A stretch of DNA of 63,806 nucleotides, counting the filler. It is 6 parts of 6 records of this genome, joined end to end, with 100 filler letters (N's around TTAATTAATTAA, not from the genome) between each part and the next. Parts side by side here need not be neighbours in the genome. Positions count along the whole stretch, not along the records: positions 16,679 to 43,082 come from SRR31156797_28384; 5 more parts are not named here. One strand, given 5' to 3'. Positions 12,547 to 47,552 of this stretch are shown here, in pieces. Positions within the stretch are counted from its first letter, which is position 1. Every line of letters begins with the position of its first letter. Both the position numbers and the translations under genes were made by a program. The notes below the pieces were generated by a model. That model had not been told where the DNA came from, searched no databases, and worked only from the letters and a program-made list of their open reading frames with translations.

Positions 12547-12569
12547 TCGGGGCCGGGAGAGGTAAAGCG

Positions 12570-14993: not shown

Positions 14994-15001
14994 GGAATAC
15001 G

Positions 15002-15793: not shown

Positions 15794-15805
15794 TGAGGTA
15801 AGGCT

Positions 15806-16578
15806 ATGGATTCGGAACTGATTCCGGAAGGTTTGCAAAGGACGTCAACGGCAAACTTTTACCTGTGGCTGCTGCCCTGGTTGGCTTTGCTGGGCCTCGG
15901 CGGGTTAGGCGCCGCATATTGTCTCTATTTCGGCCTAAACCAGACGGCCATGAACGACTACTTTGCCTTTGGAGTTTGGATTGTATTCGATCTTTCCGTT
16001 ATCGCCCTGGGCGCGGGAGCATTTTTCACCGGCTTCCTGACTTATATCGTGGGTAGGAAAGAACTGAAATCCATTATCAACCTCGCGGTTATAATAGGTT
16101 TCATCTGCTACTCCGGCGCCGTGGCCATGCTGGGCATCGATATCGGACAACCGCTCAGAGGCTGGTACATCTTCTGGCACGCCAATGTCCATTCCATGCT
16201 CACCGAGGTGTCTTTCTGCATCACCTGCTACCTGATGGTGCTGTGCATTGAATTTTTGCCCAATATCCTGGAAAACCGCCAGTTGAACAAAGTTCCCGAG
16301 TTTCACTTCTTCGCCCACAACCTGCATGAAATCATGTTCGTGTTCGCGGCCACGGGAACCTTTCTTTCTTTCTTCCATCAGGGCTCCCTGGGCGGCATGT
16401 ACGGCGTTATGTATGCACGTCCCTACGCAGCCAGGGCCATGTTCTCGATCTGGCCGACAACCTTTTTCCTGTTCATTCTGTCAGCCATGGCTTCAGGCCC
16501 GTCCTTCACCCTGATAATAACCACCCTGCTCGAAAAAATCGGACGCAAAAGGCTGGTTAAGGATGAAGCCAAACAGTT
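15806..16578 (+). CDS. qrcD: Qrc complex NrfD/PsrC-family membrane subunit, 3'-truncated
   Basis: WIVFDLSVIALGAGAF, DIGQPLR, HQGSLGG motifs; runs into the spacer. Confidence 0.92.
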
Positions 16579-16678
16579 NNNNNNNNNNNNNNNNNNNNNN
16601 NNNNNNNNNNNNNNNNNNNNNNTTAATTAATTAANNNNNNNNNNNNNNNNNNNNNNNNNNNNNNNNNNNNNNNNNNNN
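16579..16678. other. Artificial contig spacer
   Basis: N-run with TTAATTAATTAA. Confidence 0.99.
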
Positions 16679-17387
16679 GGGCCCCATGTGTTTTGATTAT
16701 GGATTTGGCCCGTTCCGTTGGGTGTGTACTTCCGGCAAACCCGAAGACCTCGACCTGACCGACCAGATTGCCATGGAGGTGCTGGAAGAAATTGCAGCTA
16801 CCGCCCCGGATGAGATCACCCAGCAAATGAAAGACAATATCCGCTGGATTCGTGAAGCCAAAGTGAACAAGCTGGTTGTGGGTTCGCAGGCGCGCATCCT
16901 ATACGCCGATGCTGAGGGGCGCATTAAAATTGCAGCGGCTTTCAACAAAGCCATTGCTGATGGAAAGATTTCTGCTCCGGTAGTGCTGGGCCGTGATCAC
17001 CACGATGTTTCCGGTACGGATTCGCCATTTCGTGAAACTTCCAACATTTATGATGGATCACAGTTTACCGCTGACATGGCCATCCAGAATGTGATTGGCG
17101 ACAGCTTCCGCGGTGCCACATGGGTTTCCATACACAACGGTGGTGGAGTAGGCTGGGGCGAAGTGATCAACGGTGGTTTCGGGATGGTGCTGGATGGTTC
17201 TGATGATGCCGACAGGAGGCTAAGAAATATGTTGCACTGGGATGTGAACAACGGCATCTCACGCCGCAACTGGGCCCGGAATGAGGGTGCTGTCTTCGCC
17301 ATCAAAAGGGCTATGGAACAAAATCCCAACCTGAAAGTAACACTTCCCGAATTTACAGATGATAATTTGATTGAGGGATTGTTCTAA
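16679..17387 (+). CDS. hutU: Urocanate hydratase, 5'-truncated
   Basis: GFGPFRWVC, GSQARI, GRDHHDVSGTDSPFRETS, SIHNGGGVGWG motifs. Confidence 0.95.
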
Positions 17388-32215: not shown

Positions 32216-33904
32216 CTATTTGCGGATTACCTTCTCGCTGTAAATGGTATTGCCGGCTGCACTGGTAATGTTAAAAATGTAAATGCCTGACTTAAAACCG
32301 GAAATATCCAGGTAGTTGGAAGTATTTTTCAAGGCCATGCTTGCTAAATTTTTTCCTGAAATATCTTTTACATCGAGCAGGTATCCTGACAGATCTCTTG
32401 AAGTTTCAATAAAAACCTGATTGGATGCCGGGTTCGGGTAAATGGAAATGCATTCAGAAACAGCATTTTCGATGGGATTGATTCCGGTGATTACTTCATT
32501 CATCCGGGCAATAATAATATCAATGCCCCCATATCCCGGCACCAGGGTATCGCCGAATATGGCATTTCCTGAATAATAACTGGCTGCAGTTACATGATGT
32601 TCCTGATCAACAACGAGAGGAATATCAGCGATTCCACCCAAAACATTACCGAAAATCCCGTTTGCCCATGCATATGTGTTGGTGGTAATGTTCAGCTTGG
32701 CAATGAAGGCATCAGAACGCTCGTAATTCGGGCAAACCTTTTCAAGTAGGTAATCGTCGAAATATGTTTTAGTTTTATATGAACCGGAAACAAAAAGGTC
32801 ATCACCAACAGCAGTTATCCTGTCGGGATATATAGGCGAAACCCCAATTGCAAAACTATGTGTCTGGTTACACCATTTGAATTCCCCTGCCTCATCCAAC
32901 GATAAAACATACATTTGATTTGCGCTGTTTCCCACCTGGGTAAACGTCTGATCATGATAATGAATGGTGCCGGTGAAGGATGACAATAAATAGATGTTGT
33001 TTTCCTGGTCCACACATACATCGTATGAAGAACTACTTTCTCCGTTAACGAAATTTATCCACGACACTTCCCCGTTAGGGGTCATTTTTACCAATGCCTT
33101 GTGGCCACTGCCATTGAGGTTGATGACCTGATCATCGTAATAAAAATTGCTGCCTCCAAAACCTGCAGCTACAATAATATTCATTTCCTGATCAAAGGTT
33201 ATTTTGCGACCGAAAAGGATATCCCCATCAGCATAAAATATCTTAAGCCATTGCAACTCAAAGTTTGAATCATATTTCCAGACCGGCATTTTAAAATCAT
33301 TAGATGAAATGATCAGTGTGTCCTGATTTTGATCGAAAAACATAGTATCCAGGCTTAATCCGGTAAAATATAAATTGTTTTGTTCGTCGGCTATAATATC
33401 ACCAGATCTAGATCTGTGCTGGCTAATATCAATACACTGAATAGCTTCAGGTGTGCCATCCGGGTAAAACCGGCAAATAAATCCGGTTGACTCATCACGT
33501 ATTATTGTTGTGTCTCCAAATATTAAATCACCAAAAAAGTCTCCCGTACAGACTATGTGATTGTTATTTAATACCATGAGATTGTCTGGGAAAACAATCG
33601 AATATTTTCCTTCCGTAAAAAACTCATAAGAGAATTCCAGTTCCCCGCTGTTGTTGTATTTCAGCAAGTAGGTTTGAGATTGTGTTCCGATGATACTGTC
33701 GTTCGATAACAACTCATCGGATTCAGTAAAGAGGTACATCCAAATATTACCTGCATCATCAGCATGAAAATCCCGAATTACCTGATCCTGTTGACCGCCT
33801 ATAGTCATCAACTGATCAAATTCGAGCGGGGATTGTGCAAAATTGGTTTTCGTAACTGTGGTTGCAAATAAAAGTGCTGAAAGGAGAAAGTAAATTTTTT
33901 TCAT
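32216..33904 (-). CDS. T9SS-secreted beta-propeller (SBBP-like repeat) protein
   Basis: Signal peptide; repeated D.xxNNIY.xG blades; C-terminal IYPNPA...GIYI. Confidence 0.8.
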   Translation of the reverse strand: MKKIYFLLSALLFATTVTKTNFAQSPLEFDQLMTIGGQQDQVIRDFHADDAGNIWMYLFTESDELLSNDSIIGTQSQTYLLKYNNSGELEFSYEFFTEGKYSIVFPDNLMVLNNNHIVCTGDFFGDLIFGDTTIIRDESTGFICRFYPDGTPEAIQCIDISQHRSRSGDIIADEQNNLYFTGLSLDTMFFDQNQDTLIISSNDFKMPVWKYDSNFELQWLKIFYADGDILFGRKITFDQEMNIIVAAGFGGSNFYYDDQVINLNGSGHKALVKMTPNGEVSWINFVNGESSSSYDVCVDQENNIYLLSSFTGTIHYHDQTFTQVGNSANQMYVLSLDEAGEFKWCNQTHSFAIGVSPIYPDRITAVGDDLFVSGSYKTKTYFDDYLLEKVCPNYERSDAFIAKLNITTNTYAWANGIFGNVLGGIADIPLVVDQEHHVTAASYYSGNAIFGDTLVPGYGGIDIIIARMNEVITGINPIENAVSECISIYPNPASNQVFIETSRDLSGYLLDVKDISGKNLASMALKNTSNYLDISGFKSGIYIFNITSAAGNTIYSEKVIRK

Positions 33905-34265
33905 GGTAATTAATTTTTATTAGGGAATGCAGTAATTTTTTAAAATCAGATCAATTACCTAATACAGGTATTTGATTTTTTGATGCATAAAAATACAACA
34001 GGATTGAGTTAATCTCAAAGTTTTTGTGACTAAATTTTTAGGGTAAATTTTATATCATGCTAAAAATGAAGCGCATGAAGTTTATATTTAAAGTAATTTT
34101 AAAATGGTGTTATTTGTTGGTCAGCATATGTTCCAGAGCTATTTTGACAAAATATTAAACAGAATGTACCTTACGTTTTTCATGGATTTGTAAACGCTGA
34201 CAATCTGTAATATTTAGCATGGAATGCAACAATCATCCAAACGAATCTTAAAAATTCCCGCCGGA

Positions 34266-34293
34266 TGCAACCAATTGATTTTCTTTGCATCTT
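34266..34293 (+). promoter_or_regulatory. Putative ECF-sigma autoregulatory promoter
   Basis: TGCAACC-N14-GCATCTT, ending 14 nt before the sigma ATG; the motif recurs at 39911. Confidence 0.6.
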
Positions 34294-34307: not shown

Positions 34308-34889
34308 ATGAGCGACAAAGGTTTAGCAGACAGATGCAAAGCCGGTGAAAGAGCAGCAATGCAGGAACTGTATGAGCGGTTCTACTCGCCAATGCTTGGG
34401 GTTTGTTTGCGCTACGCCGCTAATTATGCCGATGCTGAGGATTTTGTGCAGGATGGATTCATCAAGGTTTTTAACGACATACATTCTTTTAAGGGAACAG
34501 GAAGTTTAGAAGGCTGGATTCGCAGGGTGATCATCAACTCGGTGTTGATGAAACTCAGGAAAACGAAAAAAGAATTTGCCCATGATAACATGGAAACTGC
34601 GATGGATGAGGCAGTTGAGGAGCCGATGAGTGAAGATGAAAAAGAAGTTCAGAAAATAGATGTACTGGATTTCACGCAGGTTGAAGCCGTGAAAATTATC
34701 CAAACGTTACCCGAAGGTTTTCGAAAAGTATTAAACCTTTATGTGATAGATGGGTACAAGCATCGCGAAATTGCAAGGATGCTGGATATCAGTGTTGGGA
34801 CTTCAAAATCTCAACTCAACAGGGCCAGGAAACTCATGAAACAAAAACTTATTGAATACTCAAAAACTAAAACAAACGAAATTAACTAA
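34308..34889 (+). CDS. ECF RNA polymerase sigma factor
   Basis: AEDFVQDGFIKVF, GSLEGWIRR, HREIARMLDISVGTSKSQLNRAR. Confidence 0.95.
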   Translation: MSDKGLADRCKAGERAAMQELYERFYSPMLGVCLRYAANYADAEDFVQDGFIKVFNDIHSFKGTGSLEGWIRRVIINSVLMKLRKTKKEFAHDNMETAMDEAVEEPMSEDEKEVQKIDVLDFTQVEAVKIIQTLPEGFRKVLNLYVIDGYKHREIARMLDISVGTSKSQLNRARKLMKQKLIEYSKTKTNEIN

Positions 34890-34933: not shown

Positions 34934-35524
34934 ATGAAAAATAAGGATCTGGATAAAATATTAAATCAACTGGGGGATTTCGATCCGCAGGCCAAACCCA
35001 ACTGGGAGGCTTTTATTGCGGAAAACGAAACCCACATTAACCCAGCCGGAAAAACCCCTGGGATGGATGCCGGTAAAAAAGCCTTCATAAACAGTAGTTT
35101 GCGGTATGCAGGAATTGTAGCTGTTGTCGCAATAGGATTAGTTTTAGGATGGTATTTTGCCGGAAACCCAACCGAAACGGCTCAACCCGTTGATGAGCAG
35201 TTAGCGCCACAAACCGAAATGGTAAATGAACAGTCTGCTGAGCCGGAAACAGATGTAGATGAAAGCAAAGAGCTTGCAAAGCCAGTGAAGGTTCAGGATA
35301 AAAGTGATCAAATCATTATTTCAGATCAACCTGAAATAACTGAACCGCTGCAAAATGATGTTCAGGAAACAGAAATGTTTTTTGATCCTGTGGTTCCGGC
35401 TGCTAAAGATAAAGAGTTACTTCCCGAAACGGAGCAACCCGAACAGAAAAACACCATTTTAATTAAGGATACTGTTTTTCTGAAGAAAACAATTTACGTT
35501 ACCGATACGGTAAATCGAAAATGA
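34934..35524 (+). CDS. Putative anti-sigma factor (single TM, acidic periplasmic linker)
   Basis: Follows the sigma gene; N-terminal P..NWEAF, one TM helix, low-complexity linker, C-terminal DTV repeats. Confidence 0.65.
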   Translation: MKNKDLDKILNQLGDFDPQAKPNWEAFIAENETHINPAGKTPGMDAGKKAFINSSLRYAGIVAVVAIGLVLGWYFAGNPTETAQPVDEQLAPQTEMVNEQSAEPETDVDESKELAKPVKVQDKSDQIIISDQPEITEPLQNDVQETEMFFDPVVPAAKDKELLPETEQPEQKNTILIKDTVFLKKTIYVTDTVNRK

Positions 35525-35701: not shown

Positions 35702-37339
35702 ATGTGTAACAAATTCTCGGGGAAGATTTGGCTTGGTTTGGCCGGTGTAATGATTATTATGCTTTGGCCAAATGATGATATTGTCGGGAAAAACAAAGCA
35801 GGAATTGACTTTTATCGACCAAACCCCGACACAATTTATCAGATTGATACCGTGTATCAATACGAGTATGTTTACGACACCATCTACTATTACGACACAC
35901 TTCCTGAATCAGATACAACTTTTACTCTTAACGAAAGTTTTGAGGATAATGACACGGCAACCATAGTTAAAAGAACACTTGATGTGGTTATTACCGAAAA
36001 CCGAACGATCTATCTGGATAAAAATAATATTCCACAGTTTGAAGGCAGGGAATTCCGGGAAGTGGGCAATGGCAAAATTGAAGATGTGGACTTTAAGCCT
36101 CCCAACATAAAAACATCCACACCAAAAATCAAAACCAATAGTAAGATCGAACCTGATATCAGGCCACCTGATGTTGATCCGCTTTTTGTGCCCATTGAGC
36201 GAAGAAGACGTGATACACTTTACAGGTTTGATACAGTTGTTAACTATAAGTACCGGAATGATACGGTGTATTTCGAGAAAAAGGCCCGGTCGGATACCGT
36301 GATAACCAGCCGTACAACCTACGAGGACTTTGGCAGATCTGTACTGGTTAAGAAAACGGTGGATATGAAAATTACCGAACATAAAAACGTGTTTAAAGGT
36401 AAAGGTGGGCGAAAATCCGGCCCACGAAAAACTTTTGGGTCAAACAGGTCGAAACGATCTACAACGATTGTACCCTCAAAATACAGGGGGTCTTTTGATC
36501 GTACACCAAGGGTAGGGAAAGAGCACACCTACAGCGGAAATCTTAAGTTTGGTGTGGCATGGTTTCAACCCGATATTAAGTATGAGGCCAGATCTAAGGA
36601 ATATTCCGATCAAGTAGAAATAATGAATCAAAATCACCGGGGTGAAAATTCCATGGGCATGTCGTTTACTTACCAGTATTATAAAGATATTACCGGCTTT
36701 GAATCGGGATTGGCATTTTCGCAGCATAACTTTTCATGCGACCATTATTTTCAAAAGGTCGTAACTGATACATCCTATTACTGGGATTATTTTGAAAGAG
36801 AAGATTTTGTTTACGATACAACCTGGTACATCGACCTGGATCATCTGCTGCAAACCGGAGATACATTGTTGATCCCAAACATCGACAGCACTGAAATTCT
36901 GGTTCCTGACTCAACGCAAAAAATAGATGTGGATACATCGATGGTGAATATGAAAGAGAAGTTTAACTATTCATTCTCTTTTCTGGAAATTCCGTTAATC
37001 GCTCATTACAGGCTCCTGGATAAAAACTTTTACGTAGATCTGAGTGCTGGTTTCATCCCCATGTTTATGATATCCAAAACCGGGGAGTTTTCTTATCCGG
37101 ATTCTGATTTAACAGTTAATGCCGGAGATATCGAGTTTGATTATGGTTTCATGCTTTCATTTTATGGTTCCGCAGTTTTTGGCTACAAATTTGATAAACG
37201 CTGGTCGGTTTTTGTCGAACCACATATCCGCAGGAATCTTTTTTCCGTTATTCAAAATAATGATATTCAGGTTAAGATCAATTCCTGGGGAATCAAAGCA
37301 GGGATCGCATACCGGTTATTTAAAATTCAATCGAAGTGA
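35702..37339 (+). CDS. Outer-membrane beta-barrel protein with duplicated DT-rich N-terminal domain
   Basis: N-terminal hydrophobic segment; C-terminal barrel strands (FLEIPLIAHY, WSVFVEP, WGIKAGIAYRL). Confidence 0.7.
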   Translation: MCNKFSGKIWLGLAGVMIIMLWPNDDIVGKNKAGIDFYRPNPDTIYQIDTVYQYEYVYDTIYYYDTLPESDTTFTLNESFEDNDTATIVKRTLDVVITENRTIYLDKNNIPQFEGREFREVGNGKIEDVDFKPPNIKTSTPKIKTNSKIEPDIRPPDVDPLFVPIERRRRDTLYRFDTVVNYKYRNDTVYFEKKARSDTVITSRTTYEDFGRSVLVKKTVDMKITEHKNVFKGKGGRKSGPRKTFGSNRSKRSTTIVPSKYRGSFDRTPRVGKEHTYSGNLKFGVAWFQPDIKYEARSKEYSDQVEIMNQNHRGENSMGMSFTYQYYKDITGFESGLAFSQHNFSCDHYFQKVVTDTSYYWDYFEREDFVYDTTWYIDLDHLLQTGDTLLIPNIDSTEILVPDSTQKIDVDTSMVNMKEKFNYSFSFLEIPLIAHYRLLDKNFYVDLSAGFIPMFMISKTGEFSYPDSDLTVNAGDIEFDYGFMLSFYGSAVFGYKFDKRWSVFVEPHIRRNLFSVIQNNDIQVKINSWGIKAGIAYRLFKIQSK

Positions 37340-39777
37340 TTAAACAATTAAAATATCAGTTCCTGTTAGCAATCTTCGTCTTTTTGGGAATGACTACCCG
37401 TGGCCAGAGTTATGTTGTTGATGGTTATGTGATTGAAGAGAGTTTGTTTCTTCCGGTGGAGGCTCAGATCGTGAAAATTAAAAATGAAAATGGCGCACAG
37501 ATTGCCTCAGTGTTAACCAATGAGTCAGGATATTTCGAACAGGAAATTACATTACCTGAAGGAGACCAGTACATATCACTGAGTCTTGACCGTAATTGTA
37601 GTGGGATAATTAACACCTACAACGTGGACCTTGACCTTGATGGCCCGCATCTTTGTTACATTTTTGAAGTTTGTGAAGATATTCCATGCGTAGCCAGGTT
37701 TAACTATGAGCAGCAATCTCCCAATAATTTATTTTATCACTTTACGGACATGTCATTGGTAAATGCATACGAATGGTTTTGGGATTTTGATGACGGGTAT
37801 ACATCTGCACAACAAAATCCGCAGCATTTATTTGAAGCTCCCGGAGAATACAACGTTTCGCTTACAATTACCGGGGAAAATTGCACAACCCAGGCGCAGC
37901 GCACCATATATGCCGATTATCAGAATTGTACTGCCAAATTTTCGTTCGAGCAGGTAAACCAGGGCGAACAACTCGTGGTGAACTTTACCAACAACTCATT
38001 GGGATTTTATACTGCCAGAATCTGGGAATTTGATGACGGCGTTACCTCTACACAACAAAATCCAAAGCACGCTTACCTCCAACCCGGCACCTTTGATGTT
38101 GAACTCACCATTTTTTCGAAATCCTGCTTTAGCAGTCTTCGTAAGGTTGTTCACGTTTTACCACGGCCTGAATGTTATGCCCTGTTTAATCACGAACAGG
38201 TGCTTTCATCGGACCTTCTTGTTCAGTTTGAAGATAAATCAGCCGGAAAATCATTGCTTTTTTGGTATTGGGAATTCGGCGATGGTTATAGTGCTGAAGG
38301 TCAAAATCCGGCCCATATTTATCAGGATACTGGAACTTATGAGGTATCACTTCGTGTTATCAGTACCACAGGACAAAGCTTTTATACACGCACCATTCAT
38401 GTTTCTGAGAGTAATGGCTGTATTGCCGATTTTACCTGGCTTCAGCCTGATCCGGATAATCCCCAGGTTGTTTTCAATAGCCTGACGCCAAATGGTGAAC
38501 TGATTTTTAACTGGGATTTTGGTGATGGTGAGACTTCAACTCTCAAATCCCCGGCACATCAGTATGATGTGTTCGGTACATATGAAGTTTCGCTTGAAAT
38601 TCTGGGGTATGGTTGTAGTGATAATTTTTCTCAAACCATTACACTTGACGAACCTGAATATTGCGACGCCAAATTTACCTGGGAACAGGATTTCCCGCAG
38701 AGCCGTTCCATTCATTTCATTAACCAGTCGTTCGGAAATGAAGTTTCATACCTGTGGGATTTTGGTGACGGGCAAACCTCAGATGCAAATAACCCGATTC
38801 ATACCTACCCATCATCCGGTTCATACGATGTTGAACTCATTGTAAATACAACCGAAGGGTGTTCGGATTCTACTGGTGCCACAATAGAAATCCTGCCTCC
38901 TTTGAATTTATCTGGTGCTGTATATGCCGGTGATAATGCCATCAGCATGGGAAGTATTTTTCTTTACCGGGTTGAAGAGGATGATCAGATTCAATTTCTC
39001 GGAGAGGCTGTCCTGGAGGATGGTTTTTACAAGTTCAATGAATTGACTCCCGGAGACTATTTTTTGCAGGCCATTCCGGTTTATAATTTCCCATTTCCCG
39101 TTATTCCGTTCTATAGCCCGGTTTATTCCGGCGGAGATGTAAAATGGCACAATGCGACAATAATAAATACAGCATCTCTTCCTGATGATGTTAATTTAAA
39201 CCTGATTGCCTATAATGATTTCTTCACCGGAAAGGGTTCTGTAGCGGGGGTAGTTTTACAATCAGGTGAGCCGGACGACCTGCCTTTGATCTTTTATCTG
39301 ACTGATGGTGATGATGACATTTTTCGATTTGTTTTGGCCGAACCTGATGTACAGTTTTCGTTTGATGAAATACCCCTTGGTGTGTATTCGCTAATCCCCG
39401 AAAAAGCCGGAAAAGTAGGCGAGCCGTTTGATTTGCTTTTGGATGAGGGGTTGCCTGATATGCGTGATATCGTTTTCCTGGAAACTGACGTAACAATTAA
39501 ACCGGATTTAAGCAATATCAGTGCGGTATCAAATGCGGGTGAATTGGTAATATTTCCAAATCCCGCAAATCACTTTTTTACCATTGGCCTGCCCGGTACT
39601 GATGGTCTATCTATAGAACTGGAGATGTTTGACGCTACCACCATGCAATTGGTCAACAAAAAGGTTGTAAAGACAGGCATCCCGATTTCAATCCGAAATT
39701 TCAATCCGGGCATTTATGTTGTTGCAGCTACCATTGAAAACCATACCACCTATCAAAAATTGATAGTCAAACAATAG
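37336..39777 (+). CDS. T9SS-secreted protein with five PKD domains
   Basis: Five W(D/E)F(G/D)DG...NP.H repeats; C-terminal IFPNPA...GIY; start overlaps the upstream stop. Confidence 0.9.
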   Translation: MIKQLKYQFLLAIFVFLGMTTRGQSYVVDGYVIEESLFLPVEAQIVKIKNENGAQIASVLTNESGYFEQEITLPEGDQYISLSLDRNCSGIINTYNVDLDLDGPHLCYIFEVCEDIPCVARFNYEQQSPNNLFYHFTDMSLVNAYEWFWDFDDGYTSAQQNPQHLFEAPGEYNVSLTITGENCTTQAQRTIYADYQNCTAKFSFEQVNQGEQLVVNFTNNSLGFYTARIWEFDDGVTSTQQNPKHAYLQPGTFDVELTIFSKSCFSSLRKVVHVLPRPECYALFNHEQVLSSDLLVQFEDKSAGKSLLFWYWEFGDGYSAEGQNPAHIYQDTGTYEVSLRVISTTGQSFYTRTIHVSESNGCIADFTWLQPDPDNPQVVFNSLTPNGELIFNWDFGDGETSTLKSPAHQYDVFGTYEVSLEILGYGCSDNFSQTITLDEPEYCDAKFTWEQDFPQSRSIHFINQSFGNEVSYLWDFGDGQTSDANNPIHTYPSSGSYDVELIVNTTEGCSDSTGATIEILPPLNLSGAVYAGDNAISMGSIFLYRVEEDDQIQFLGEAVLEDGFYKFNELTPGDYFLQAIPVYNFPFPVIPFYSPVYSGGDVKWHNATIINTASLPDDVNLNLIAYNDFFTGKGSVAGVVLQSGEPDDLPLIFYLTDGDDDIFRFVLAEPDVQFSFDEIPLGVYSLIPEKAGKVGEPFDLLLDEGLPDMRDIVFLETDVTIKPDLSNISAVSNAGELVIFPNPANHFFTIGLPGTDGLSIELEMFDATTMQLVNKKVVKTGIPISIRNFNPGIYVVAATIENHTTYQKLIVKQ

Positions 39778-39910
39778 CTCTCCCATCAATTCTGCATGCT
39801 GCATTTTAAATACATCATTTTATTGTGCTTTGTTAGCTGCTGAATAACATTACTTTGGCAGATTAAAAATGGAAAAAGTGTAAATAATCTCAGATTTTTC
39901 AAAGAAATTA

Positions 39911-39937
39911 TGCAACCATTTTTCTATAAAGCATCTT
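39911..39937 (+). promoter_or_regulatory. Second copy of the putative ECF promoter
   Basis: TGCAACC-N13-GCATCTT, followed by about 320 nt with no plus-strand gene. Confidence 0.55.
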
Positions 39938-39944
39938 TAAGTCG

Positions 39945-40220
39945 TAATAAGAAATTCGTTCTTTCATACATTTATTAGGATGATCTCAAACTATTTCGAC
40001 TTTAACTTCTCTCATACACTTGCACAAATTTTACTTTTTGAGATTATTTAATGAATAATTACTATTAAAGGGTGTGTAAAAAATACTGACTGCCTCTGCT
40101 CTGCTTGCTTAACTTGTGAACTGCACTTATCATTACACACCCTTTATTTTTTTCCCCCTTACAGGTTCCTAACCTGTTTTGATACAGTTAATAAAGCATC
40201 TCCCCCAGGATGCTTTTTTT
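39945..40220 (+). ncRNA. Candidate structured small RNA
   Basis: Two long stems enclosing ~50-nt loops, then two terminator-like hairpins; promoter-like motif upstream. Confidence 0.5.
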
Positions 40221-40263
40221 ATTTTTACCCGGGTATTATTCACGAATAACCTAAGATTGAACC

Positions 40264-40815
40264 ATGGAAACCTATATTGCAGTGCTACGCGGAATTAATG
40301 TGAGCGGTAAAAACAAGCTTAAAATGAAAGATCTTGTTGCAGCCCTCCATCAAATTGGTCTCGAGGAAGTTGAAACCTATATTCAGAGTGGGAACTTAAT
40401 TTTTAAACACCAAAATAAATCGACTTCCTTTTTCGAAGGGCTGATCCATACAAGTATTCTCGAGCATTTTGGTTATGATGTTCCGGTGATTGTATTTACC
40501 CGGGCCTACCTGGAAGACATTATAACTTTCAACCCGTTCTTCAAAACTCCTGAAACTGATATCACCAAATTACATGTTACTTTTTTTGCAAAAGAGCCTG
40601 ATGCTGAGGCACATGAATTGATGCAGGCAGCAGATTTTTCTCCGGATAAAATTTTAAAAGGCAAACAGGCTTATTATGGCTATTGCCCGAATGGTTATGG
40701 TAAAACAAAATTCAACAACGATTTTTTTGAGCGTAGATCGAAGGTGAGGGCAACAACCCGAAACTGGAAGACCTGCAATACGCTGCTCGAAATGGCACGT
40801 GATTCAGGATCTTAA
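40264..40815 (+). CDS. DUF1697 family protein
   Basis: YIAVLRGINVSG, TYIQSGN, TTRNWKT. Confidence 0.9.
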   Translation: METYIAVLRGINVSGKNKLKMKDLVAALHQIGLEEVETYIQSGNLIFKHQNKSTSFFEGLIHTSILEHFGYDVPVIVFTRAYLEDIITFNPFFKTPETDITKLHVTFFAKEPDAEAHELMQAADFSPDKILKGKQAYYGYCPNGYGKTKFNNDFFERRSKVRATTRNWKTCNTLLEMARDSGS

Positions 40816-40830
40816 TTTTTGGTATTGAAA

Positions 40831-41196
40831 TCAAATCAAGTCTTTCTCTCTATAAATTTTCACGCCATTTCCTATCATTTCCCGGATTTCTGCAATGAGC
40901 ACATCATCCAGCTTTTTGATGTGAAAACAGCTTTTGCCTTTCAGCATTTTTTGCAGGTCGGGTGAAAGTTTGAAAGCCTCAACATCGGTGTAAACCGGAA
41001 AAAAATACAAGCGGACATCTTTTGGTTTTGGTACTATACTGGCAAAATAGAACCCATCAACTTTTTGTTTGCCCTGCATGGCTTCTTTGGTGCCTGCTAC
41101 TTCCATCCCTTCTTCATTATCAGCCCTAATCTGTAATGGTGGAATATGTTCCAGCAAGAGCTGCTTTAAAGTTTGATGAATTTCCCGAATTTCCAT
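40831..41196 (-). CDS. DUF1801-like protein
   Basis: YFASI...VRLYFFPVY, KMLKGKSCFHIK. Confidence 0.65.
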   Translation of the reverse strand: MEIREIHQTLKQLLLEHIPPLQIRADNEEGMEVAGTKEAMQGKQKVDGFYFASIVPKPKDVRLYFFPVYTDVEAFKLSPDLQKMLKGKSCFHIKKLDDVLIAEIREMIGNGVKIYREKDLI

Positions 41197-41341
41197 ATTG
41201 TTAATGTTTTTGGTTTGCCTGTACCTGATTATTGTTAAACTTAAATTAATTTCCCGATTCTTTGTTCATCAATGATTGGCACATTTTCATTTTTATTATC
41301 TTGCATGCTCATTTTTTTGCAAACCAAAATTTATAATCAAA

Positions 41342-42991
41342 ATGTCAGCAGAAGTGGGTTTTACCTTTTGGGATTATGTGGTATTCATAGCATATGCCAT
41401 CATTATTTTAAGTATTGGATTAATTGTATCTCGCAAAAAGAAAGGTGTTGAACGCAATGCCGAGGATTATTTTCTTGCCGGAAAATCCCTGCCATGGTGG
41501 GCGATTGGCGCTTCACTCATTGCGGCAAATATTTCAGCCGAGCAAATGATTGGAATGTCAGGATCCGGAATGGCACTGGGCCTTGCCATTGCTTCGTATG
41601 AATGGATGGCCGCACTTACACTGATCATTGTCGGAAAATATTTCCTTCCCATTTTCATCGAAAAGGGGTTATACACCATCCCTGAATTTATTGAAAAACG
41701 GTACAGTAAAAACCTGAAAACCATCCTTGCCGTTTTTTGGATTGCACTATTTATATTCGTAAACCTCACTTCTGTTTTATTTCTTGGGGGTAAAGCCCTC
41801 GATACAATCCTGGGAGATGGTGACGGTTCAATGATATTTCCTGCCATCATTGCGCTGGCATGTTTTGCTGCCGCATATTCCATTTATGGAGGCCTGGCGG
41901 CAGTAGCATGGACCGATGTTGTTCAGGTTACGCTATTGATTTTGGGTGGATTTATTACCACACTCATAGCTTTGGATCACGTTACTCCGGATGGTGGTGT
42001 AATTGCCGGTTTCTCGCATGTTTATGAAACTGCCGGTGATAAGTTCCACATGATCCTGAAACCTGAAAATGAATATTTCAAAGACCTGCCGGGAATTGCT
42101 GTTCTTGTTGGCGGGTTGTGGGTCGCTAACCTGTATTACTGGGGCTTCAACCAGTACATTATACAGCGTACACTGGCCGCCAAAAGCCTGCGCGAGTCAC
42201 AGCGAGGAATTGTGTTTGCAGCTTCCCTTAAGCTGATCGTTCCGCTTTTTGTTGTAATTCCGGGCATTGCAGCTTGGATTCTTTTTTCTCAGCCCGAAGG
42301 TACAGCCATTATTGACGGAGTACAGGATGCTTTCACCAAAGCTGATGGAACTACCAATTGGGACAAAGCCTATCCATGGTTGATCAGTTCTTTTATTCCG
42401 GTTGGATTGAAAGGCCTTGTGGTGGCGGCACTGGCTGCGGCCATTGTTTCATCGCTTGCTTCAATGGTAAATTCTACGGCAACGATTTTCACCATGGACA
42501 TTTACAAACCGTATCTCGAAAACAAAACAGCTAAAAATAAAGATGTGGCTGTGGGTCGTATCACTGGTGGTGTTGCCTTGCTGATTGGTGTAGTTGTAGC
42601 ACCCATGCTCGGGAATATCGATCAGGCATTTCAGTACATCCAGGAATACACTGGCCTCGTAAGTCCCGGAATTCTTGCTGTGTTTATGCTTGGATTATTC
42701 TACAAAAAAGCCACCAACAATGGTGCTATTACCGGAATCCTGGCTTCCATTCCGATTGCATTACTGCTAAAAATCCCGGCGTTGGGTTTACCCTGGATGG
42801 ATCAGATGTTCTATACCTTCCTTATCACAATGGCTGTGATTGTTATGGTAAGCCTCTCTACTAACAAGCTTGATGATGATCCAAAGGCGATTATACTGAC
42901 CAACAAAATTTTCATAACAGGCAAAAAGTTTAACATTTCGGCCTATGCCATCATGATTGTGCTGGTTGTGCTTTACACCATCTTCTGGTAA
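41342..42991 (+). CDS. Sodium:solute symporter (SGLT-like sugar transporter)
   Basis: DYFLAGKSLPWWAIGASLIAANISAEQ, YWGFNQYIIQR; likely start MSAEV at 41342. Confidence 0.93.
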   Translation: MSAEVGFTFWDYVVFIAYAIIILSIGLIVSRKKKGVERNAEDYFLAGKSLPWWAIGASLIAANISAEQMIGMSGSGMALGLAIASYEWMAALTLIIVGKYFLPIFIEKGLYTIPEFIEKRYSKNLKTILAVFWIALFIFVNLTSVLFLGGKALDTILGDGDGSMIFPAIIALACFAAAYSIYGGLAAVAWTDVVQVTLLILGGFITTLIALDHVTPDGGVIAGFSHVYETAGDKFHMILKPENEYFKDLPGIAVLVGGLWVANLYYWGFNQYIIQRTLAAKSLRESQRGIVFAASLKLIVPLFVVIPGIAAWILFSQPEGTAIIDGVQDAFTKADGTTNWDKAYPWLISSFIPVGLKGLVVAALAAAIVSSLASMVNSTATIFTMDIYKPYLENKTAKNKDVAVGRITGGVALLIGVVVAPMLGNIDQAFQYIQEYTGLVSPGILAVFMLGLFYKKATNNGAITGILASIPIALLLKIPALGLPWMDQMFYTFLITMAVIVMVSLSTNKLDDDPKAIILTNKIFITGKKFNISAYAIMIVLVVLYTIFW

Positions 42992-43082: not shown

Positions 43083-43182
43083 NNNNNNNNNNNNNNNNNN
43101 NNNNNNNNNNNNNNNNNNNNNNNNNNTTAATTAATTAANNNNNNNNNNNNNNNNNNNNNNNNNNNNNNNNNNNNNNNNNNNN
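43083..43182. other. Artificial contig spacer
   Basis: N-run with TTAATTAATTAA. Confidence 0.99.
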
Positions 43183-44157
43183 ATCTTTTTTCTAGTTTCC
43201 AATGATCGAATATATAGCGTTTCTGCCTCTGAGTACTTTCCTTGATCATGATAGAGTCCGGCTAAATTATTAAGCCTTGTAGCCACATCGGGATGTTCTG
43301 ACCCGAATACTCTCTCTGTAATTTCTAATGACTGAATAAACAGGGGTTCCGCCTTAGAGTATTCTCCTTGATTATAGTAAAGACTAGCTAAATTATTGAA
43401 GCTCATAGCTATATCTGGATGCTCTAATCCCAATACATTTTCTCTGATTTCCAATGACTGAATCAACAGAGGTTCTGCTTCAGAGTACCTCCCTTGATCT
43501 TGATAGAGTCCAGCTAAATTATTAAAACCAGTAGCTACTGCTGGATGTTCTGGACCCAATACATTTTCATCAATCTCCAATGACTTGATGTATAGAGATT
43601 CTGCTTCTGGGTATCTCCCCTGATCTTGATAGAGATTAGCTAAATTATTAAGGCTTGCAGCTACACCTGGATGTTTTGCATCTAATATCTTATCTCTAAT
43701 TTCCAATGATTTGACATAAAGAGGTTCTGCTTCTGAGTACCTCCCTTGATCTTGATAGAGACTAGCTAAATTATTAAGGCTTTCAGCAACATCTGGATGT
43801 TCTGACCCCAATATTTTTTCACGCATTTCCAATGATTTGACATGAAGAGGTTCTGCTTCAGAGTATTTTCCTTGATCTTGATAGAGAATAGCTAAATTGT
43901 TGAGACTTTCAGCAACATCTGGATGCTCTGAAGCCAATATCTTTTCTCGAATGTTCAATGATTGGACAAATAGCGGTTCCGCTTTAGAGTATTTTCCTTG
44001 AGCTAGATAGAGATTAGCTAAATTATTAAGACTTTCAGCAACATCTGGATGTTTTGTATCCAACACTTTCTGCCTTATCTCTAATGAACGAGTTAAGGCA
44101 GATTCACATTCTGCAAATCGTCCACGATCATTCAGATATTCCCCTATTGAATTTAAT
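43183..44157 (-). repeat. Tandem 126-bp (42-aa) TPR repeats
   Basis: LNNLA.LY.DQG.YSEAEPL...SLEI.E..LG.EHPDVA.S; 7 complete units and 1 partial. Confidence 0.92.
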
Positions 44158-45980
44158 AGTGCGGCAGATTCTTCTAATTCCAGAGATAACATATAAATAA
44201 GGTTTGAGCAAGCTAGCGCATGAGAGAGTAAACGATCACATAAATCCCAATTTTCAAATTCCACTTCTGGGAAGATTAAATTTATTGCCTTCACTACACG
44301 CTCTGCCCACAAATGCTGAACACTTTCATCTACCCCTTCTTTAATTACAGTTTGAACAAGGCGATGAATGTCATACGTACGATTGTTCCAATTTATGCTT
44401 ATTAACGAAAATTGAGCAAGTGGTTCAATTATTTCATGAAATACAAGAGGGTCTTCTTGTGCTTCCTGAAGTGTCGAAGCAATGTTATCCCCCAACATTT
44501 CATGTCCTTTTATGAAAATATCAAAAGGAATCTTATCACAATGGAGAAAAGCACTCGCAAAAAGTAAATCCACTGAAACCGAAGAAGTATCTTTGATTTC
44601 TTCGAAATTCAACAACCATGTAGTTGCTACAGATTCTGGATACTTATCGGTTGAAATTCTTGATTGTTCAAGTAGCCTCAAACCACGTATTTTATAACTT
44701 GCAAGATACTCATTAAAACTGCACTGCATTTTATGGATATAAGCCCCAGCTTGTTCAATTGCAAGTGGCAGGCAATCGAGTTCTTGTATTATTTTTTTAA
44801 GCGAGTCAACTTCCTTATCATCGAGATCTTTTCTACCTGTGCGTCTTAGGAAAAAATCAAAAGCTTCCTCAGGAAGCATTTTGTTTATTCTAATTGGATT
44901 GGTGATTCCAAGAGTGTCAAAGATTTGTGCTCGCGAAGTTAGCAAAACATGTCCATGTAAGTTACGTGATAAAAATGGTTTAATGATGTCTGGGTTATCC
45001 GCATTATCAAAAACTAAAAGCCAATTGTCATTGGTATTTAGCCAATTCAAAACTACAGATGCTATTAAATTTTGATCTGCATCTTCTTTTACTGGTAGAT
45101 TTAATAGCTTTGCAATAGCTGTGTAATCTGAAACAATTGAATCTTCGAAATCTGCTTTTACCCAGAAAACAAATTCATACTCTTTAAAAAAACGATGAGA
45201 ATACTCGATTGCAGTTTGTGTTTTTCCAATACCACCAAGCCCATAAACTGCTACTGGTTGGGATAAAGCTACTGTTTTTTGCGTTAGAAGAAGTTTGCGT
45301 ATTTCTTCTAATTCTTCATCACGGCCTGTGAAATAAGGATTTGGTGAGTAGGGAATATTTGACTTTGTAGGCGATACCTGTACCTGATGTAGTTCTCCTA
45401 GTACTGGTTTTTTCTTCGATTCTGAAGATTTACCACTTAATGATTTTTCAACTGGCTTGCAGACTTTGCTTTCTTTTTTGATTTGTCTTAAGTCACCCAA
45501 CTCTGGTTTTGAAACTACTTCTTGCGAAGTTAGACGAGCATACAATGTATCGTACTCACCTTCATTGTCTAACAAATAACGAGTGGCACTTTTTAAATAA
45601 ACAGGAATAAACGGAGAATCGTTTGGAGATAAAATCACAGGAATGAATTTTGAATTCTTGCTTGCAGCATCATAAAGTTCCTGTGTTAGGATTGCTCCTT
45701 CCCAAGTAACACCTAATCCTTTTTTAGGTTCTTCCTTGCCCAGAAAGCGCCTTTCATAAATCTCAGTACAAACCACCAGAACGAAATCAGATTTTTCTAT
45801 TTCATTCTGCATCCACCGTGGCCATCCTTCATCTGGTGAATCAATATATTGATCAATGTTGCAATCGACTCCTTCGCTGCGTAATCGATTTGAAAGATTC
45901 AATACGCACTCCTTGTGTTCAGGAGAGTCATGACTATAACTTATGAAAACTCTCGAACTTTCTGGCTCAGAAGTGGTTAT
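43183..45980 (-). CDS. SEFIR - NB-ARC (STAND) - TPR protein, 3'-truncated
   Basis: RVFISYSHDS...IDQY...GWPRWM...GVTWEG SEFIR domain; Walker A GLGGIGKT, Walker B WLLVFDNAD, LPLAIEQA; at least 8 TPRs. Start placed at an ATA codon by inference. Confidence 0.85.
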
Positions 45981-46169
45981 ATTTTTCCCCCCGAAGAAAT
46001 GTTTTAGGTTTAAAAGACTGGATTACTTTCGTAATTAGTAAACTAGTTATATTTGTATAGTTGAATCATGACTATAAATATTTCCATATCAATTTAATCA
46101 GTTTTAATTTTCTGCCGCCATCTCCCACCAACAATGATTATAAATATAATGATTACAAAAATAACCATT

Positions 46170-47552
46170 ATGGAATTCTACAACCGGGAAAAAGAACTCT
46201 CCCTAATGTCCCTCCTTGACAAAAGCAAACCATCCTTTCTGGTAATAACCGGCAAAAGAAGGGTCGGGAAGACCGAGCTTATCAAGCAGTTCAGCAGGGA
46301 CAGACAGGCGCTCTACTTCTTCGTGGACAGCAACAAGAGCATTGACATACTCATGGACGAGTTTGACAGGATGCTCAGGGAGGAAATGGAGCTGCCGGAC
46401 TACATCAATGTAAAGGAACCTGAGAATTTCCTCAAGTTCATCACATCCTATGACAGGGATGTGGTGATAGCCATCGATGAATTCCAGAGATTCCTTAAGA
46501 TATATCCTTCTTTCATCACCCAGCTTCAGCGATACTGGGACATGAAAGCGGACAATTGCAGGGTCTTTCTTATCGTATCCGGTTCTTCCATCGGTATGAT
46601 AAGAAAGATATTCATCGAGGCGAAAGCTCCGCTCTTCAAGCGGGCTGACAACATACTGACCCTGCGGCCTTTCACGGTCCGCGAGACCTTTGCCATGCTT
46701 GATGATATGGGCATCACGGACCTGCAGGAAAAGCTGAACCTGTATTTCCTCTTTGGGGGAACGGTCTACTATTACCGCCTCTTCGAGAAATACCAGTGTA
46801 CAGGCTTCCGGGATGCACTTGAGAAGCTCGTCTTCAGTGAGTTTGCACCACTGAAAGATGAGGTGCGGGATATCCTCATCGAGGAATTCGGCAAGGAACA
46901 CTCAACCTACTATGAGATAATATCCGCCATTTCACAGGGCAAATGTTCCAAAAGTGAGATATCGGAGATGACACACGTATCTTCAAGTTCCCTGTCTCCT
47001 TATTTCTACGACCTTTCAGACCTGCTCGGGATAACAGAGTATAGGATACCCACAACTAACAGTCCTAAAAAGAGTAAGAAAGGGCGATATTTCCTCAAGG
47101 ACAACTTCTTCAGGTTCTATGGACGTTTCATCTATCCTGCTTTGAGTCAGTACATGGCAGGTAGTTATGACCTGATAATGGAAAAAGTACTGCAGGAATG
47201 GCAGAGCTACACCGGGAAAATATTCGAGGACATGACCAGGGAGTTGCTGACGGAAGAATTAATTGACGAATATCCTGAGATTGGAAGCTGGTGGAACCGG
47301 AAGGGTGACGAGGTAGATGTCCTGGCCGTAAATCGTGAGGAAAAAAAGGTGCTTGCCGTTGAGATAAAGAATAGAGAACTCAACAGAAAGGATGCCAGAG
47401 CTATTCTCAACTCTACTCAGGAGAAGACCACACTGATCAACGAGCTTTCCGGCATGGAGTTCAGGATAGGGATTGTTGCAAGGAAAATAGAAGGTCGGGA
47501 ATTACTTGAGAGCGAAGGCTTTCTGGTATGGGAACTGGAAGATTTCTTGTAG
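46170..47552 (+). CDS. Archaeal ATPase with C-terminal DUF234 (PD-(D/E)XK-like) domain
   Basis: FYNREKEL, GKRRVGKT, IDEFQ, SGSS, DNFFRFY, WW....EVDVLA...EIK; likely start MEFYN at 46170. Confidence 0.9.
   Translation: MEFYNREKELSLMSLLDKSKPSFLVITGKRRVGKTELIKQFSRDRQALYFFVDSNKSIDILMDEFDRMLREEMELPDYINVKEPENFLKFITSYDRDVVIAIDEFQRFLKIYPSFITQLQRYWDMKADNCRVFLIVSGSSIGMIRKIFIEAKAPLFKRADNILTLRPFTVRETFAMLDDMGITDLQEKLNLYFLFGGTVYYYRLFEKYQCTGFRDALEKLVFSEFAPLKDEVRDILIEEFGKEHSTYYEIISAISQGKCSKSEISEMTHVSSSSLSPYFYDLSDLLGITEYRIPTTNSPKKSKKGRYFLKDNFFRFYGRFIYPALSQYMAGSYDLIMEKVLQEWQSYTGKIFEDMTRELLTEELIDEYPEIGSWWNRKGDEVDVLAVNREEKKVLAVEIKNRELNRKDARAILNSTQEKTTLINELSGMEFRIGIVARKIEGRELLESEGFLVWELEDFL

What the first reader, a model, noticed from the sequence alone, without database searches (positions are those of the whole stretch)
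39911..40220. Candidate ECF-sigma-driven small RNA with repeated anti-start-codon seeds (Bacteroidota)
Seen: the motif in front of the ECF sigma gene (TGCAACC-N14-GCATCTT, 34266) recurs at 39911 (N13), followed by no gene. The downstream sequence folds into stem 1 (39970-39990 with 40037-40056, about 20 bp with GU pairs and one bulge, 46-nt loop) and stem 2 (TAAAGGGTGTGTAA 40066-40079 with TTACACACCCTTTA 40133-40146, 14 perfect bp, 53-nt loop). Two terminator-like hairpins follow (40161-40180, 40193-40220). The 12-mer TTCTYTCATACA occurs twice in largely unpaired positions (39959, 40007); its complement TGT-ATG-ARA-GAA looks like a translation start (Met-Lys/Arg-Glu). Established: enterobacterial sigmaE drives sRNAs (MicA, RybB) that repress outer-membrane protein mRNAs. 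Inference: this is a non-coding arm of the neighbouring ECF system that blocks start codons of envelope-protein mRNAs. I do not recognise it as a known family.
Basis: partly seen in the sequence, partly recalled or inferred. Interest (0 to 1): 0.75.

Follow-up and report, generated by a model that had tools for sequence, protein, structure and literature searches.

The report
Conserved small RNA behind ECF-type promoter
A roughly 280-base stretch between two genes is a strongly conserved non-coding RNA gene that carries the same promoter-like motif as the neighbouring stress sigma factor gene, so it is probably a regulatory RNA of that system, although its targets remain unknown.

Summary
The motif TGCAACC-N13/14-GCATCTT occurs only at 34266 and 39911 (2 found, 0.06 expected). 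The stems and the final terminator are real, and the + strand folds better than shuffles (z -4.46).

One relative was found, a Lentimicrobiaceae MAG (L001). It has the same gene order and the same element.
- From the -35 box to the terminator, 265 of 313 columns are identical (85%). Four-fold degenerate sites of the three flanking genes are 42-47% identical.
- Both promoter boxes are identical (14 of 14 positions), while the spacer has 8 of 13 identical. Sequence upstream and downstream is not conserved.
- No ORF is conserved.
- The two large unpaired loops hold identical runs of 53 and 36 nt.

It has no Rfam match and is single-copy in all DNA I could search.

Not supported:
- The first "anti-start-codon" copy reads CAA, not CAT, in L001.
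- No target stands out among 42 gene starts.
- Covariation between two sequences is not above chance (P=0.31).

Verdict: a real, new non-coding RNA, probably ECF-driven. Trans-acting repression is inferred, not shown.

The parts
34266..34293 (+). ECF-type promoter-like motif TGCAACC-N14-GCATCTT in front of the ECF sigma gene (presumed autoregulated promoter)
   Evidence: One of only 2 matches in the window. It ends 15 nt before the ATG at 34308.
34308..34889 (+). ECF sigma factor gene (193 aa)
   Evidence: Sigma70_r2, Sigma70_r4_2, Sigma70_ECF. TIGR02937 sigma70-ECF scores 94.9 bits against a cut-off of 42.9. No equivalog model reaches its cut-off.
34934..35524 (+). 196-aa protein with one hydrophobic segment near residues 58-76. 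Putative anti-sigma factor, judged by position and topology only.
   Evidence: no family. (translation). The anti-sigma role is inference.
35702..37339 (+). 545-aa protein with a weak outer-membrane beta-barrel match
   Evidence: OMP_b-brl_2, 23.1 bits, below the cut-off of 27. 78% aa identical ortholog in L001.
37336..39777 (+). 813-aa PKD-repeat protein with a type IX secretion C-terminal sorting domain. Last gene of the ECF operon.
   Evidence: 71% aa identical ortholog in L001.
39911..39937 (+). ECF-type promoter-like motif TGCAACC-N13-GCATCTT of the RNA gene
   Evidence: In L001 both boxes are identical (14 of 14) and the spacer has 8 of 13 identical. Sequence upstream of the -35 box is 46% identical.
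39942..40225 (+). Predicted non-coding RNA of about 280 nt. The 5' end is inferred from the -10 box and the 3' end from the terminator.
   Evidence: 85% identical to L001. No conserved ORF. Same fold in both sequences.
39959..39970 (+). First copy of TTCTYTCATACA
   Evidence: D2. CAT becomes CAA in L001. Predicted unpaired probability 0.58.
39970..40056 (+). Stem 1 (39970-39990 with 40037-40056) enclosing loop 1 (39991-40036), which holds the second 12-mer at 40007-40018
   Evidence: Identity to L001: 3' arm 20 of 20, loop 43 of 47, 5' arm 16 of 21. Loop unpaired probability 0.94. Identical run 40005-40057.
40066..40146 (+). Stem 2 (14 bp, 40066-40079 with 40133-40146) enclosing C/U-rich loop 2 (40080-40132), followed by a T/C run
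   Evidence: I2. Identical run 40089-40124. Loop unpaired probability 0.67-0.73.
40161..40177 (+). Hairpin 3 (7 bp)
   Evidence: The closing pair is A-U in the window and G-C in L001. The tail is not U-rich in L001.
40193..40225 (+). Intrinsic terminator (9-bp stem, C-rich loop, T tail)
   Evidence: for the window and for L001. 24 of 24 stem-loop positions are identical.
40264..40815 (+). DUF1697 gene, downstream neighbour. Probably not part of the RNA gene.
   Evidence: In L001 it is separated from the terminator by about 265 unrelated bases.

Best explanation
The interval 39911-40225 is the gene of a non-coding RNA of about 280 nt on the + strand. It sits at the 3' end of an ECF sigma operon: sigma, a single-pass membrane protein, an outer-membrane-barrel-like protein, and a PKD protein secreted by the type IX system.

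Shown:
- It is under strong purifying selection as a non-coding sequence.
- It starts at a conserved bipartite motif identical to the one before the sigma gene.
- It ends at a conserved intrinsic terminator.
- It folds into two long stems that display two large, almost invariant, C/U-rich unpaired loops, followed by a short hairpin.

Inferred:
- The neighbouring ECF sigma transcribes it. Operon read-through probably also reaches it, since no terminator lies between the PKD gene and the element. RNA levels would then rise when the ECF system is switched on.
- The RNA acts in trans. It would use the invariant loops (40005-40036 and 40089-40124) to base-pair with mRNAs and lower their translation or stability. 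This would be the non-coding arm of the ECF response, as in sigmaE systems.

Which mRNAs it targets is unknown. The 'anti-start-codon' reading of the 12-mer is not supported.
For: Conservation:
- 265 of 313 columns are identical from the -35 box to the T tail. Four-fold sites of the three flanking genes give 55/116, 73/175 and 19/40 identical (47%, 42%, 48%). The 65 alignment columns before the -35 box (52 window bases) are 46% identical, and sequence after the terminator is essentially unalignable.
- Differences are clustered. Identical runs are 53, 36 and 27 nt. A run of at least 53 arises in 0.3% of 20000 permutations, and runs of 53 plus 36 in 0.01%.

Promoter:
- The motif occurs twice in 63.8 kb, once before the sigma gene and once here.
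- Both boxes are identical in L001 while 5 of 13 spacer positions differ.
- ECFs usually autoregulate (PMC7826278, introduction passage).

Non-coding:
- None of the 6 window ORFs of 8 aa or more in the element (both strands) has a counterpart with the same start and stop in L001. Two 1-nt indels lie in loop 2.

Structure:
- Both sequences give the same architecture (z -4.46 and -3.43).
- All 4 one-sided changes in the consensus helices give G-U pairs on the + strand.
- The - strand folds less well.
- Terminators are + strand specific.

Other:
- The loops are predicted unpaired (0.94-0.96 and 0.67-0.73).
- Synteny with the ECF operon is kept in L001.
- Precedent: sigmaE-dependent sRNAs in Proteobacteria and FoxI in Fusobacterium, which lacks Hfq (PMC9546586, abstract and passages).
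Against: - There are no transcript data of any kind.
- Only two sequences exist, so covariation is not demonstrable. I found 3 compensatory pairs in helices of 5 bp or more, against a mean of 1.9 in 2000 random-substitution simulations (P=0.31).
- Two pairs of stem 1 are broken in L001.
- The sigma gene's upstream region could not be compared in the relative because the contig ends. The motif's link to this sigma therefore rests on one genome.
- The -10 box reads GCATC rather than the CGT-type box reported for a flavobacterial ECF motif (PMC9723704, passage).
- No convincing target was found. The duplex scan of 42 start regions gave a best empirical p of 0.001 across 168 tests, and no operon gene was among the top hits.
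- The element is followed by DUF1697 on the same strand in 2 of 2 genomes, so a cis role is not excluded.
Confidence: 0.5

Rival explanations
1. The element is a cis-acting leader or attenuator of the DUF1697 gene. The ECF-type promoter serves DUF1697, and the terminator at 40193-40225 is a conditional stop, like a riboswitch or a protein-controlled attenuator.
For: It is on the same strand and lies directly upstream of DUF1697 in 2 of 2 genomes. In the window only 38 nt separate the T tail from the ATG, and I saw no exact TAnnTTTG box there (by eye).
Against: L001 has about 265 unrelated bases between the terminator and DUF1697. This stretch has its own inverted repeats and a TAAATTTG box 39 nt before the ATG. 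The other 8 DUF1697 loci that align over 178-180 of its 183 residues (38-51% aa identity) lack the element; a ninth locus, L010, matches only residues 147-172. There is no Rfam cis-regulatory match above noise (best Phe_leader 25.4 bits against a gathering score of 55). No alternative antiterminator pairing is conserved. The terminator is invariant and strong.
Confidence: 0.17
2. The element is the structured 3' untranslated region of the ECF operon mRNA, with no promoter of its own. It would stabilise or terminate the operon transcript, or be cut off it as a 3'-derived sRNA. The motif at 39911 would then be a coincidence or a binding site for something else.
For: No terminator-like site lies between the PKD stop (39777) and 40193, so operon transcripts should run into the element. 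It follows the PKD gene at a similar distance in both genomes, 134 and 140 nt.
Against: Conservation starts sharply at the -35 box, not at the stop codon. The 65 alignment columns before the -35 box (52 window bases) are 46% identical. Both boxes are invariant while the spacer drifts, which is the pattern of a promoter. The motif is identical to the one before the sigma gene.
Confidence: 0.13
3. The RNA acts by binding a protein, as a sponge or scaffold, rather than by pairing with mRNAs. The invariant loops would be protein-binding platforms.
For: The loops are conserved over 32-36 nt, longer than a typical seed. Loop 2 holds four CUGC repeats (by eye). Two C-rich boxes are kept, after stem 2 and in the terminator loop. 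In Bacteroides, the RNA-binding protein RbpB binds single-stranded parts of sRNAs (PMC11697453, passage).
Against: No candidate RNA-binding protein gene lies next to it. There is no resemblance to known sponge RNAs in Rfam. This rival is untested either way.
Confidence: 0.12
4. The element is not a functional RNA. It would be a mobile-element remnant (MITE), a small-protein gene, or DNA-level regulatory sequence.
For: It has a 14-bp perfect inverted repeat. Short ORFs exist on both strands.
Against: It is single-copy in the window. It is found only at the orthologous place in L001 among the 10 loci. It is absent from the plasmid and phage collections. The inverted repeat is internal, not terminal. 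No ORF is conserved. 85% identity against 42-47% at neutral sites argues for function.
Confidence: 0.05

Closest known systems
SigmaE-dependent sRNAs of Enterobacteria and Vibrio (MicA, RybB, MicL; VrrA, MicV)
   Same: An ECF sigma promoter drives a terminator-ended non-coding RNA as the repressing arm of an envelope response. This is named in PMC9546586 (passages). MicL, as I recall, has its own sigmaE promoter and shares the terminator of the upstream gene, much like the position of this element after the PKD gene.
   Different: There is no sequence or structure match (Rfam). This RNA is about 280 nt, against roughly 70-140 nt as I recall. Its candidate seeds sit in large hairpin loops rather than at a free 5' end. 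The host phylum is not known to have Hfq (recalled). The sigma here is one of many accessory ECFs, not a known global sigmaE. Targets are unknown.
FoxI / FoxJ, sigmaE-dependent sRNAs of Fusobacterium nucleatum
   Same: They show that the non-coding arm principle exists outside Proteobacteria and without Hfq. FoxI represses several envelope-protein mRNAs (PMC9546586, abstract and passages; PMC11005410, title and start of abstract only).
   Different: FoxI is 87 nt and experimentally validated. There is no homology. The phylum is different.
Bacteroides sRNAs GibS and the FopS family
   Same: They come from the same phylum. They are trans-acting, with single-stranded seed regions and Rho-independent terminators, and they are bound by RbpB (PMC11697453, passages; PMC7366714).
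   Different: FopS is described as a single-stranded 5' stretch plus a terminator and as deposited in Rfam. Nothing in Rfam 15 matches here. No ECF-type promoter is reported for them in the passages I read.
dCas12f-sigmaE RNA-guided transcription systems of Bacteroidetes
   Same: They also link a Bacteroidetes ECF sigma with a non-coding RNA (PMC13472631, abstract and section 5).
   Different: Those systems need a dCas12f gene next to rpoE, a sigma with a C-terminal extension, and no anti-sigma. Here the sigma is 193 aa and is followed by a membrane protein. None of the 42 ORFs scanned has a Cas12f/TnpB-type domain.

Membership tests
ECF/sigmaE-dependent trans-acting sRNA (functional class) | Promoter recognised by the ECF sigma | tested here: inconclusive
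   The same bipartite motif lies before the sigma gene and before the RNA, and both boxes are conserved in L001. There is no expression or binding test, and the sigma promoter is not available in the relative.
ECF/sigmaE-dependent trans-acting sRNA (functional class) | Discrete non-coding transcript ending at an intrinsic terminator | tested here: met
   This is met in silico only. There is a conserved terminator, no conserved ORF, and conservation bounded by the promoter and the terminator. The transcript itself was not observed.
ECF/sigmaE-dependent trans-acting sRNA (functional class) | Seed pairing with mRNAs, typically of envelope proteins | tested here: inconclusive
   Only 42 start regions were available. 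Nothing is above what 168 tests give by chance. The anti-seed pattern is not enriched. The genome is not available.
MicA / RybB / MicL / other Rfam sRNA families, including Bacteroidota families | Match to the family covariance model at gathering score | tested here: not met
   There are 0 matches in the whole window at gathering thresholds. In 39700-40350 at E up to 10 there are 5 weak matches, all far below gathering scores.
Cis-regulatory leader / riboswitch of DUF1697 | Fixed linkage to the regulated gene, with an expression platform next to its start | tested here: inconclusive
   The element is upstream of DUF1697 in 2 of 2 genomes, but with 38 nt against about 265 nt of unrelated spacer. 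It is absent from the other 8 DUF1697 loci that align over nearly the full protein.
MITE / mobile repeat | Multiple copies, with terminal inverted repeats | tested here: not met
   It is single-copy in the window. It is found only at the orthologous site among the 10 loci. It is absent from plasmids and phages. The inverted repeat is internal. The whole genome was not available.
dCas12f-sigmaE guide RNA | dCas12f gene adjacent to the sigma gene | tested here: not met
   The genes after sigma are a 196-aa membrane protein, a barrel-like protein and a PKD protein. No Cas12f/TnpB-type domain is present in the 42 ORFs.

The most novel reading that the evidence does not exclude
An accessory ECF sigma system of a Bacteroidota lineage carries its own dedicated regulatory RNA at the 3' end of its operon. 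The RNA is fired from a second copy of the autoregulated promoter. It presents two long invariant loops on rigid stems as a double pairing platform. It works without Hfq or ProQ to shut down a set of mRNAs when the system is on. This would be the first non-coding arm of an ECF response in Bacteroidota. It would belong to a local, operon-specific ECF rather than to a global sigmaE.
Probability: 0.35. Interest if true: 0.6.

Novelty: new member of a known kind. Interest (0 to 1): 0.45.

Why it matters
Bacteroidota carry about 22 ECF sigma factors per genome on average (PMC7826278, passage read). Almost nothing is known about post-transcriptional arms of these systems. My three literature searches turned up no ECF-dependent sRNA in this phylum. 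The nearest cases are proteobacterial sigmaE sRNAs and Fusobacterium FoxI.

A conserved RNA gene that shares the promoter of an operon-specific ECF would be a concrete, testable example. It would suggest that even accessory ECF modules can carry their own repressor RNA.

The evidence is computational and rests on two genomes from uncultured organisms. For now this is a good candidate rather than a discovery.

Tried and rejected
- Rfam. The whole window at gathering scores gave 0 matches. The region at E up to 10 gave 5 noise-level matches.
- Multicopy or mobile element. There is no second copy in the window, in the 10 loci, in plasmids or in phages.
- Small protein. No conserved ORF on either strand.
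- dCas12f-sigmaE guide RNA. No dCas12f gene is present (paper read).
- Anti-start-codon seeds. The complement is not enriched. Only 1 of 42 starts fits ATG-RRR-GRR. Copy 1 is not conserved.
- Target scan. I used RNA duplex energies for four unpaired regions against 42 start regions, with 1500 random windows as background. The best hit was loop 1 against the start of 14990-15793 (p 0.001). This is not significant over 168 tests, and the duplex is full of interior loops. I did not pursue it.
- Covariation. A search for compensatory pairs, including a possible long-range helix between 40059-40068 and 40182-40194, is not above random expectation.
- A weak nhmmer hit in L002 (E 0.05) lies inside a 651-aa ORF and was rejected.
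- The 11-nt repeat ATAAAGCATCT (39926 and 40191, D3) shrinks to 6 nt in L001, so I treat it as coincidence.
- No covariance model was built. At 289 columns it would exceed the tool's time forecast, and two near-identical sequences would add little over nhmmer.
Further homologues, genome-wide copy number and the regulon remain unchecked.

Full report
**1. The observation**

- TGCAACC-N14-GCATCTT lies at 34266-34293, ending 15 nt before the ATG of a gene that Pfam and NCBIfam identify as an ECF-type sigma factor.
- TGCAACC-N13-GCATCTT lies at 39911-39937, in the 486-nt gap between a PKD/type IX secretion gene (stop at 39777) and a DUF1697 gene (start at 40264).
- The two sites share ATGCAACCA and GCATCTT.

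How the motif compares with chance:
- A scan for TGCAACC-N11-16-GCATC finds exactly these two sites on both strands of the 63.8-kb window. The mean in shuffles is 0.06, and 0 of 100 shuffles reach 2.
- A looser pattern, GCAAC-N13-17-CATCT, gives the same two sites. It has 0.64 expected, and 12 of 100 shuffles reach 2.
- TGCAACC alone is at chance level.
- The pattern was read off the two sites, so these numbers flatter it.

Structure:
- The predicted stems are real. The + strand of 39945-40225 folds into stem 1, stem 2 (14 perfect bp), a 7-bp hairpin and a terminator, with z -4.46. The - strand gives z -2.16.
- The only terminator-like site in 39600-40400 is 40193-40216 plus its T tail.
- The 12-mer repeat is present.

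**2. Surroundings**

The upstream genes, all on the + strand, are:
- the ECF sigma (193 aa);
- a 196-aa protein with one hydrophobic segment and no family match, which may be the anti-sigma factor (inference);
- a 545-aa protein with a sub-threshold outer-membrane beta-barrel match;
- an 813-aa PKD-repeat protein with a type IX secretion sorting domain.

No terminator separates this operon from the element. None of the 42 candidate ORFs of the window has a Cas12f/TnpB-type domain. A second, unrelated ECF sigma at 2570-3139 has a different upstream sequence.

**3. Related sequence**

It gave 10 loci. The source genome itself is not in the collection.
- Nine loci are distant (38-51% aa identity). 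nhmmer and blastn do not find the element in any of them. The one weak hit there lies inside a 651-aa ORF.
- The tenth, L001, is from a MAG titled uncultured Lentimicrobiaceae. It is syntenic: the end of the 196-aa gene, the 545-aa gene (78% aa), the PKD gene (71%), the element, DUF1697 (71%) and the sodium:solute symporter (93%).
- The L001 contig ends before the sigma gene. The sigma's own promoter therefore could not be compared.

**4. Conservation**

From the -35 box to the T tail, 265 of 313 alignment columns are identical (85%). For comparison:
- four-fold degenerate sites of the three flanking genes are 47%, 42% and 48% identical;
- the 65 alignment columns before the -35 box (52 window bases) are 46% identical;
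- sequence beyond the terminator is essentially unalignable.

The element is thus better conserved than the coding genes around it (72-78% nt). Its conserved block begins at the promoter motif and ends at the terminator.

Within the motif, both boxes are identical (14 of 14) while the 13-nt spacer has 5 differences. That is the pattern expected of a promoter.

Differences are clustered. Identical runs cover 40005-40057 (53 nt), 40089-40124 (36 nt) and 40193-40219 (27 nt). A run of 53 or more arises in 0.3% of permutations, and runs of 53 plus 36 in 0.01%. The first two runs cover most of the two large loops, which are predicted to be unpaired (probability 0.94-0.96 and 0.67-0.73).

**5. Coding or not**

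No ORF of 8 aa or more on either strand keeps both its start and stop between the two sequences. Two single-base indels lie in loop 2. The element is non-coding.

**6. Structure conservation**

L001 folds into the same four elements, with z -3.43.
- In the consensus fold, 4 pairs change on one side. All 4 become G-U pairs on the + strand, which would be mismatches on the - strand.
- Hairpin 3 changes its closing A-U pair to G-C.
- Two pairs in the middle of stem 1 and the outermost pair of stem 2 are lost in L001.

With two sequences, covariation cannot be shown. I counted 3 compensatory pairs within helices of 5 bp or more kept in both sequences. Random placement of the same substitutions gives 1.9 on average and 3 or more in 31% of 2000 trials. 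The case for function therefore rests on conservation, not on covariation.

**7. The 'anti-start-codon seeds'**

- Copy 1 (39959-39970) reads CAA instead of CAT in L001.
- Copy 2 is invariant, but only as part of the 53-nt run.
- The complement TGTATGARAGAA is not enriched in the window (16 matches at up to 2 mismatches, 13.6 expected).
- Only 1 of 42 candidate starts fits the wobble-tolerant complement.
- A duplex-energy scan of four unpaired regions against 42 start regions gave nothing beyond what 168 tests yield by chance. No operon gene stood out.

Without the genome, a real target search is impossible.

**8. Leader of DUF1697?**

The element precedes DUF1697 in both genomes. In L001, however, about 265 unrelated bases lie between the terminator and the gene. 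This stretch carries two inverted repeats and a TAAATTTG box 39 nt before the ATG. TAnnTTTG is the Bacteroidetes primary-sigma -7 consensus (PMC7366714, passage), but matches to it are at chance frequency in L001. The invariant, strong terminator and the variable spacing argue for a separate RNA gene. Conditional read-through is not excluded.

**9. Known systems**

- Rfam 15 has no match.
- SigmaE-dependent sRNAs are established in Proteobacteria. FoxI extends the principle to Fusobacterium, which lacks Hfq (PMC9546586, abstract and passages).
- My searches found no ECF-dependent sRNA described in Bacteroidota and nothing on Lentimicrobium sRNAs. Supplements were closed and subscription journals are not covered, so this is not proof of absence.
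- The recently described dCas12f-sigmaE RNA-guided transcription systems (PMC13472631, abstract and section 5) need a dCas12f gene beside rpoE, which is absent here.
- A flavobacterial ECF-type motif has a CGT box at -10 (PMC9723704, passage). The GCATC box here differs from that.

**10. Verdict**

- It most likely belongs to that ECF regulon (confidence about 0.6).
- It plausibly acts in trans through its two invariant loops (about 0.45).

It is a new member of a known kind, sigma-factor-dependent regulatory RNAs, in a phylum where none has been described to my knowledge.

Noticed in passing
L001 4877-5141: About 265 bases are present in the relative but absent from the window, between the RNA terminator and DUF1697. 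They carry a 19-nt, 95% complementary inverted repeat (4986-5004 / 5040-5058) and a 12-nt one (4877-4888 / 4925-4936). This could be a small inserted element or a structured leader.
   Followed up: partly
window 39881-39892 and 40039-40050: A 12-nt perfect complement links a segment upstream of the promoter to the 3' arm of stem 1 (I4). In transcripts reading through from the PKD gene it could compete with stem 1. The L001 counterpart has two mismatches.
   Followed up: partly
window 34225-34249: A near-copy of the motif (TGCAACA, then GAATCTT) lies about 40 nt upstream of the sigma promoter motif. Its spacer is only 11 nt, so it is probably not functional.
   Followed up: no
window 43131-45902 (-): A 923-aa protein combines TIR, NB-ARC and many TPR repeats. 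This is the domain make-up of STAND-type anti-phage defence proteins. It is followed by a DUF234/ATPase_2 gene at 46134-47552.
   Followed up: no
window 16686-17387 (+): This 233-aa ORF matches only the C-terminal domain of urocanase (E 2.5e-90). It lies directly after a molybdopterin oxidoreductase / 4Fe-4S / NrfD operon (11893-16630). It may be a truncated or split urocanase gene.
   Followed up: no
window 2570-3139 (-), 2160-2573 (-), 1707-2150 (-): A second ECF sigma gene is followed by two small ORFs with no family match. Its upstream region lacks the TGCAACC/GCATC motif.
   Followed up: partly
window 41276-42991 (+) and L001 5839-7539: The sodium:solute symporter is 93% aa identical between the two genomes, while its neighbours are 71-78% identical. 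The 121-aa ORF at 40831-41196 (-) has no counterpart in L001.
   Followed up: no
window 17683-22710 (-): A 1675-aa protein combines CotH kinase, five lamin-tail domains and a type IX secretion sorting domain. Four further type IX secretion cargo proteins are in the window: 27605-29791, 32216-33904, 37336-39777 and this one.
   Followed up: no
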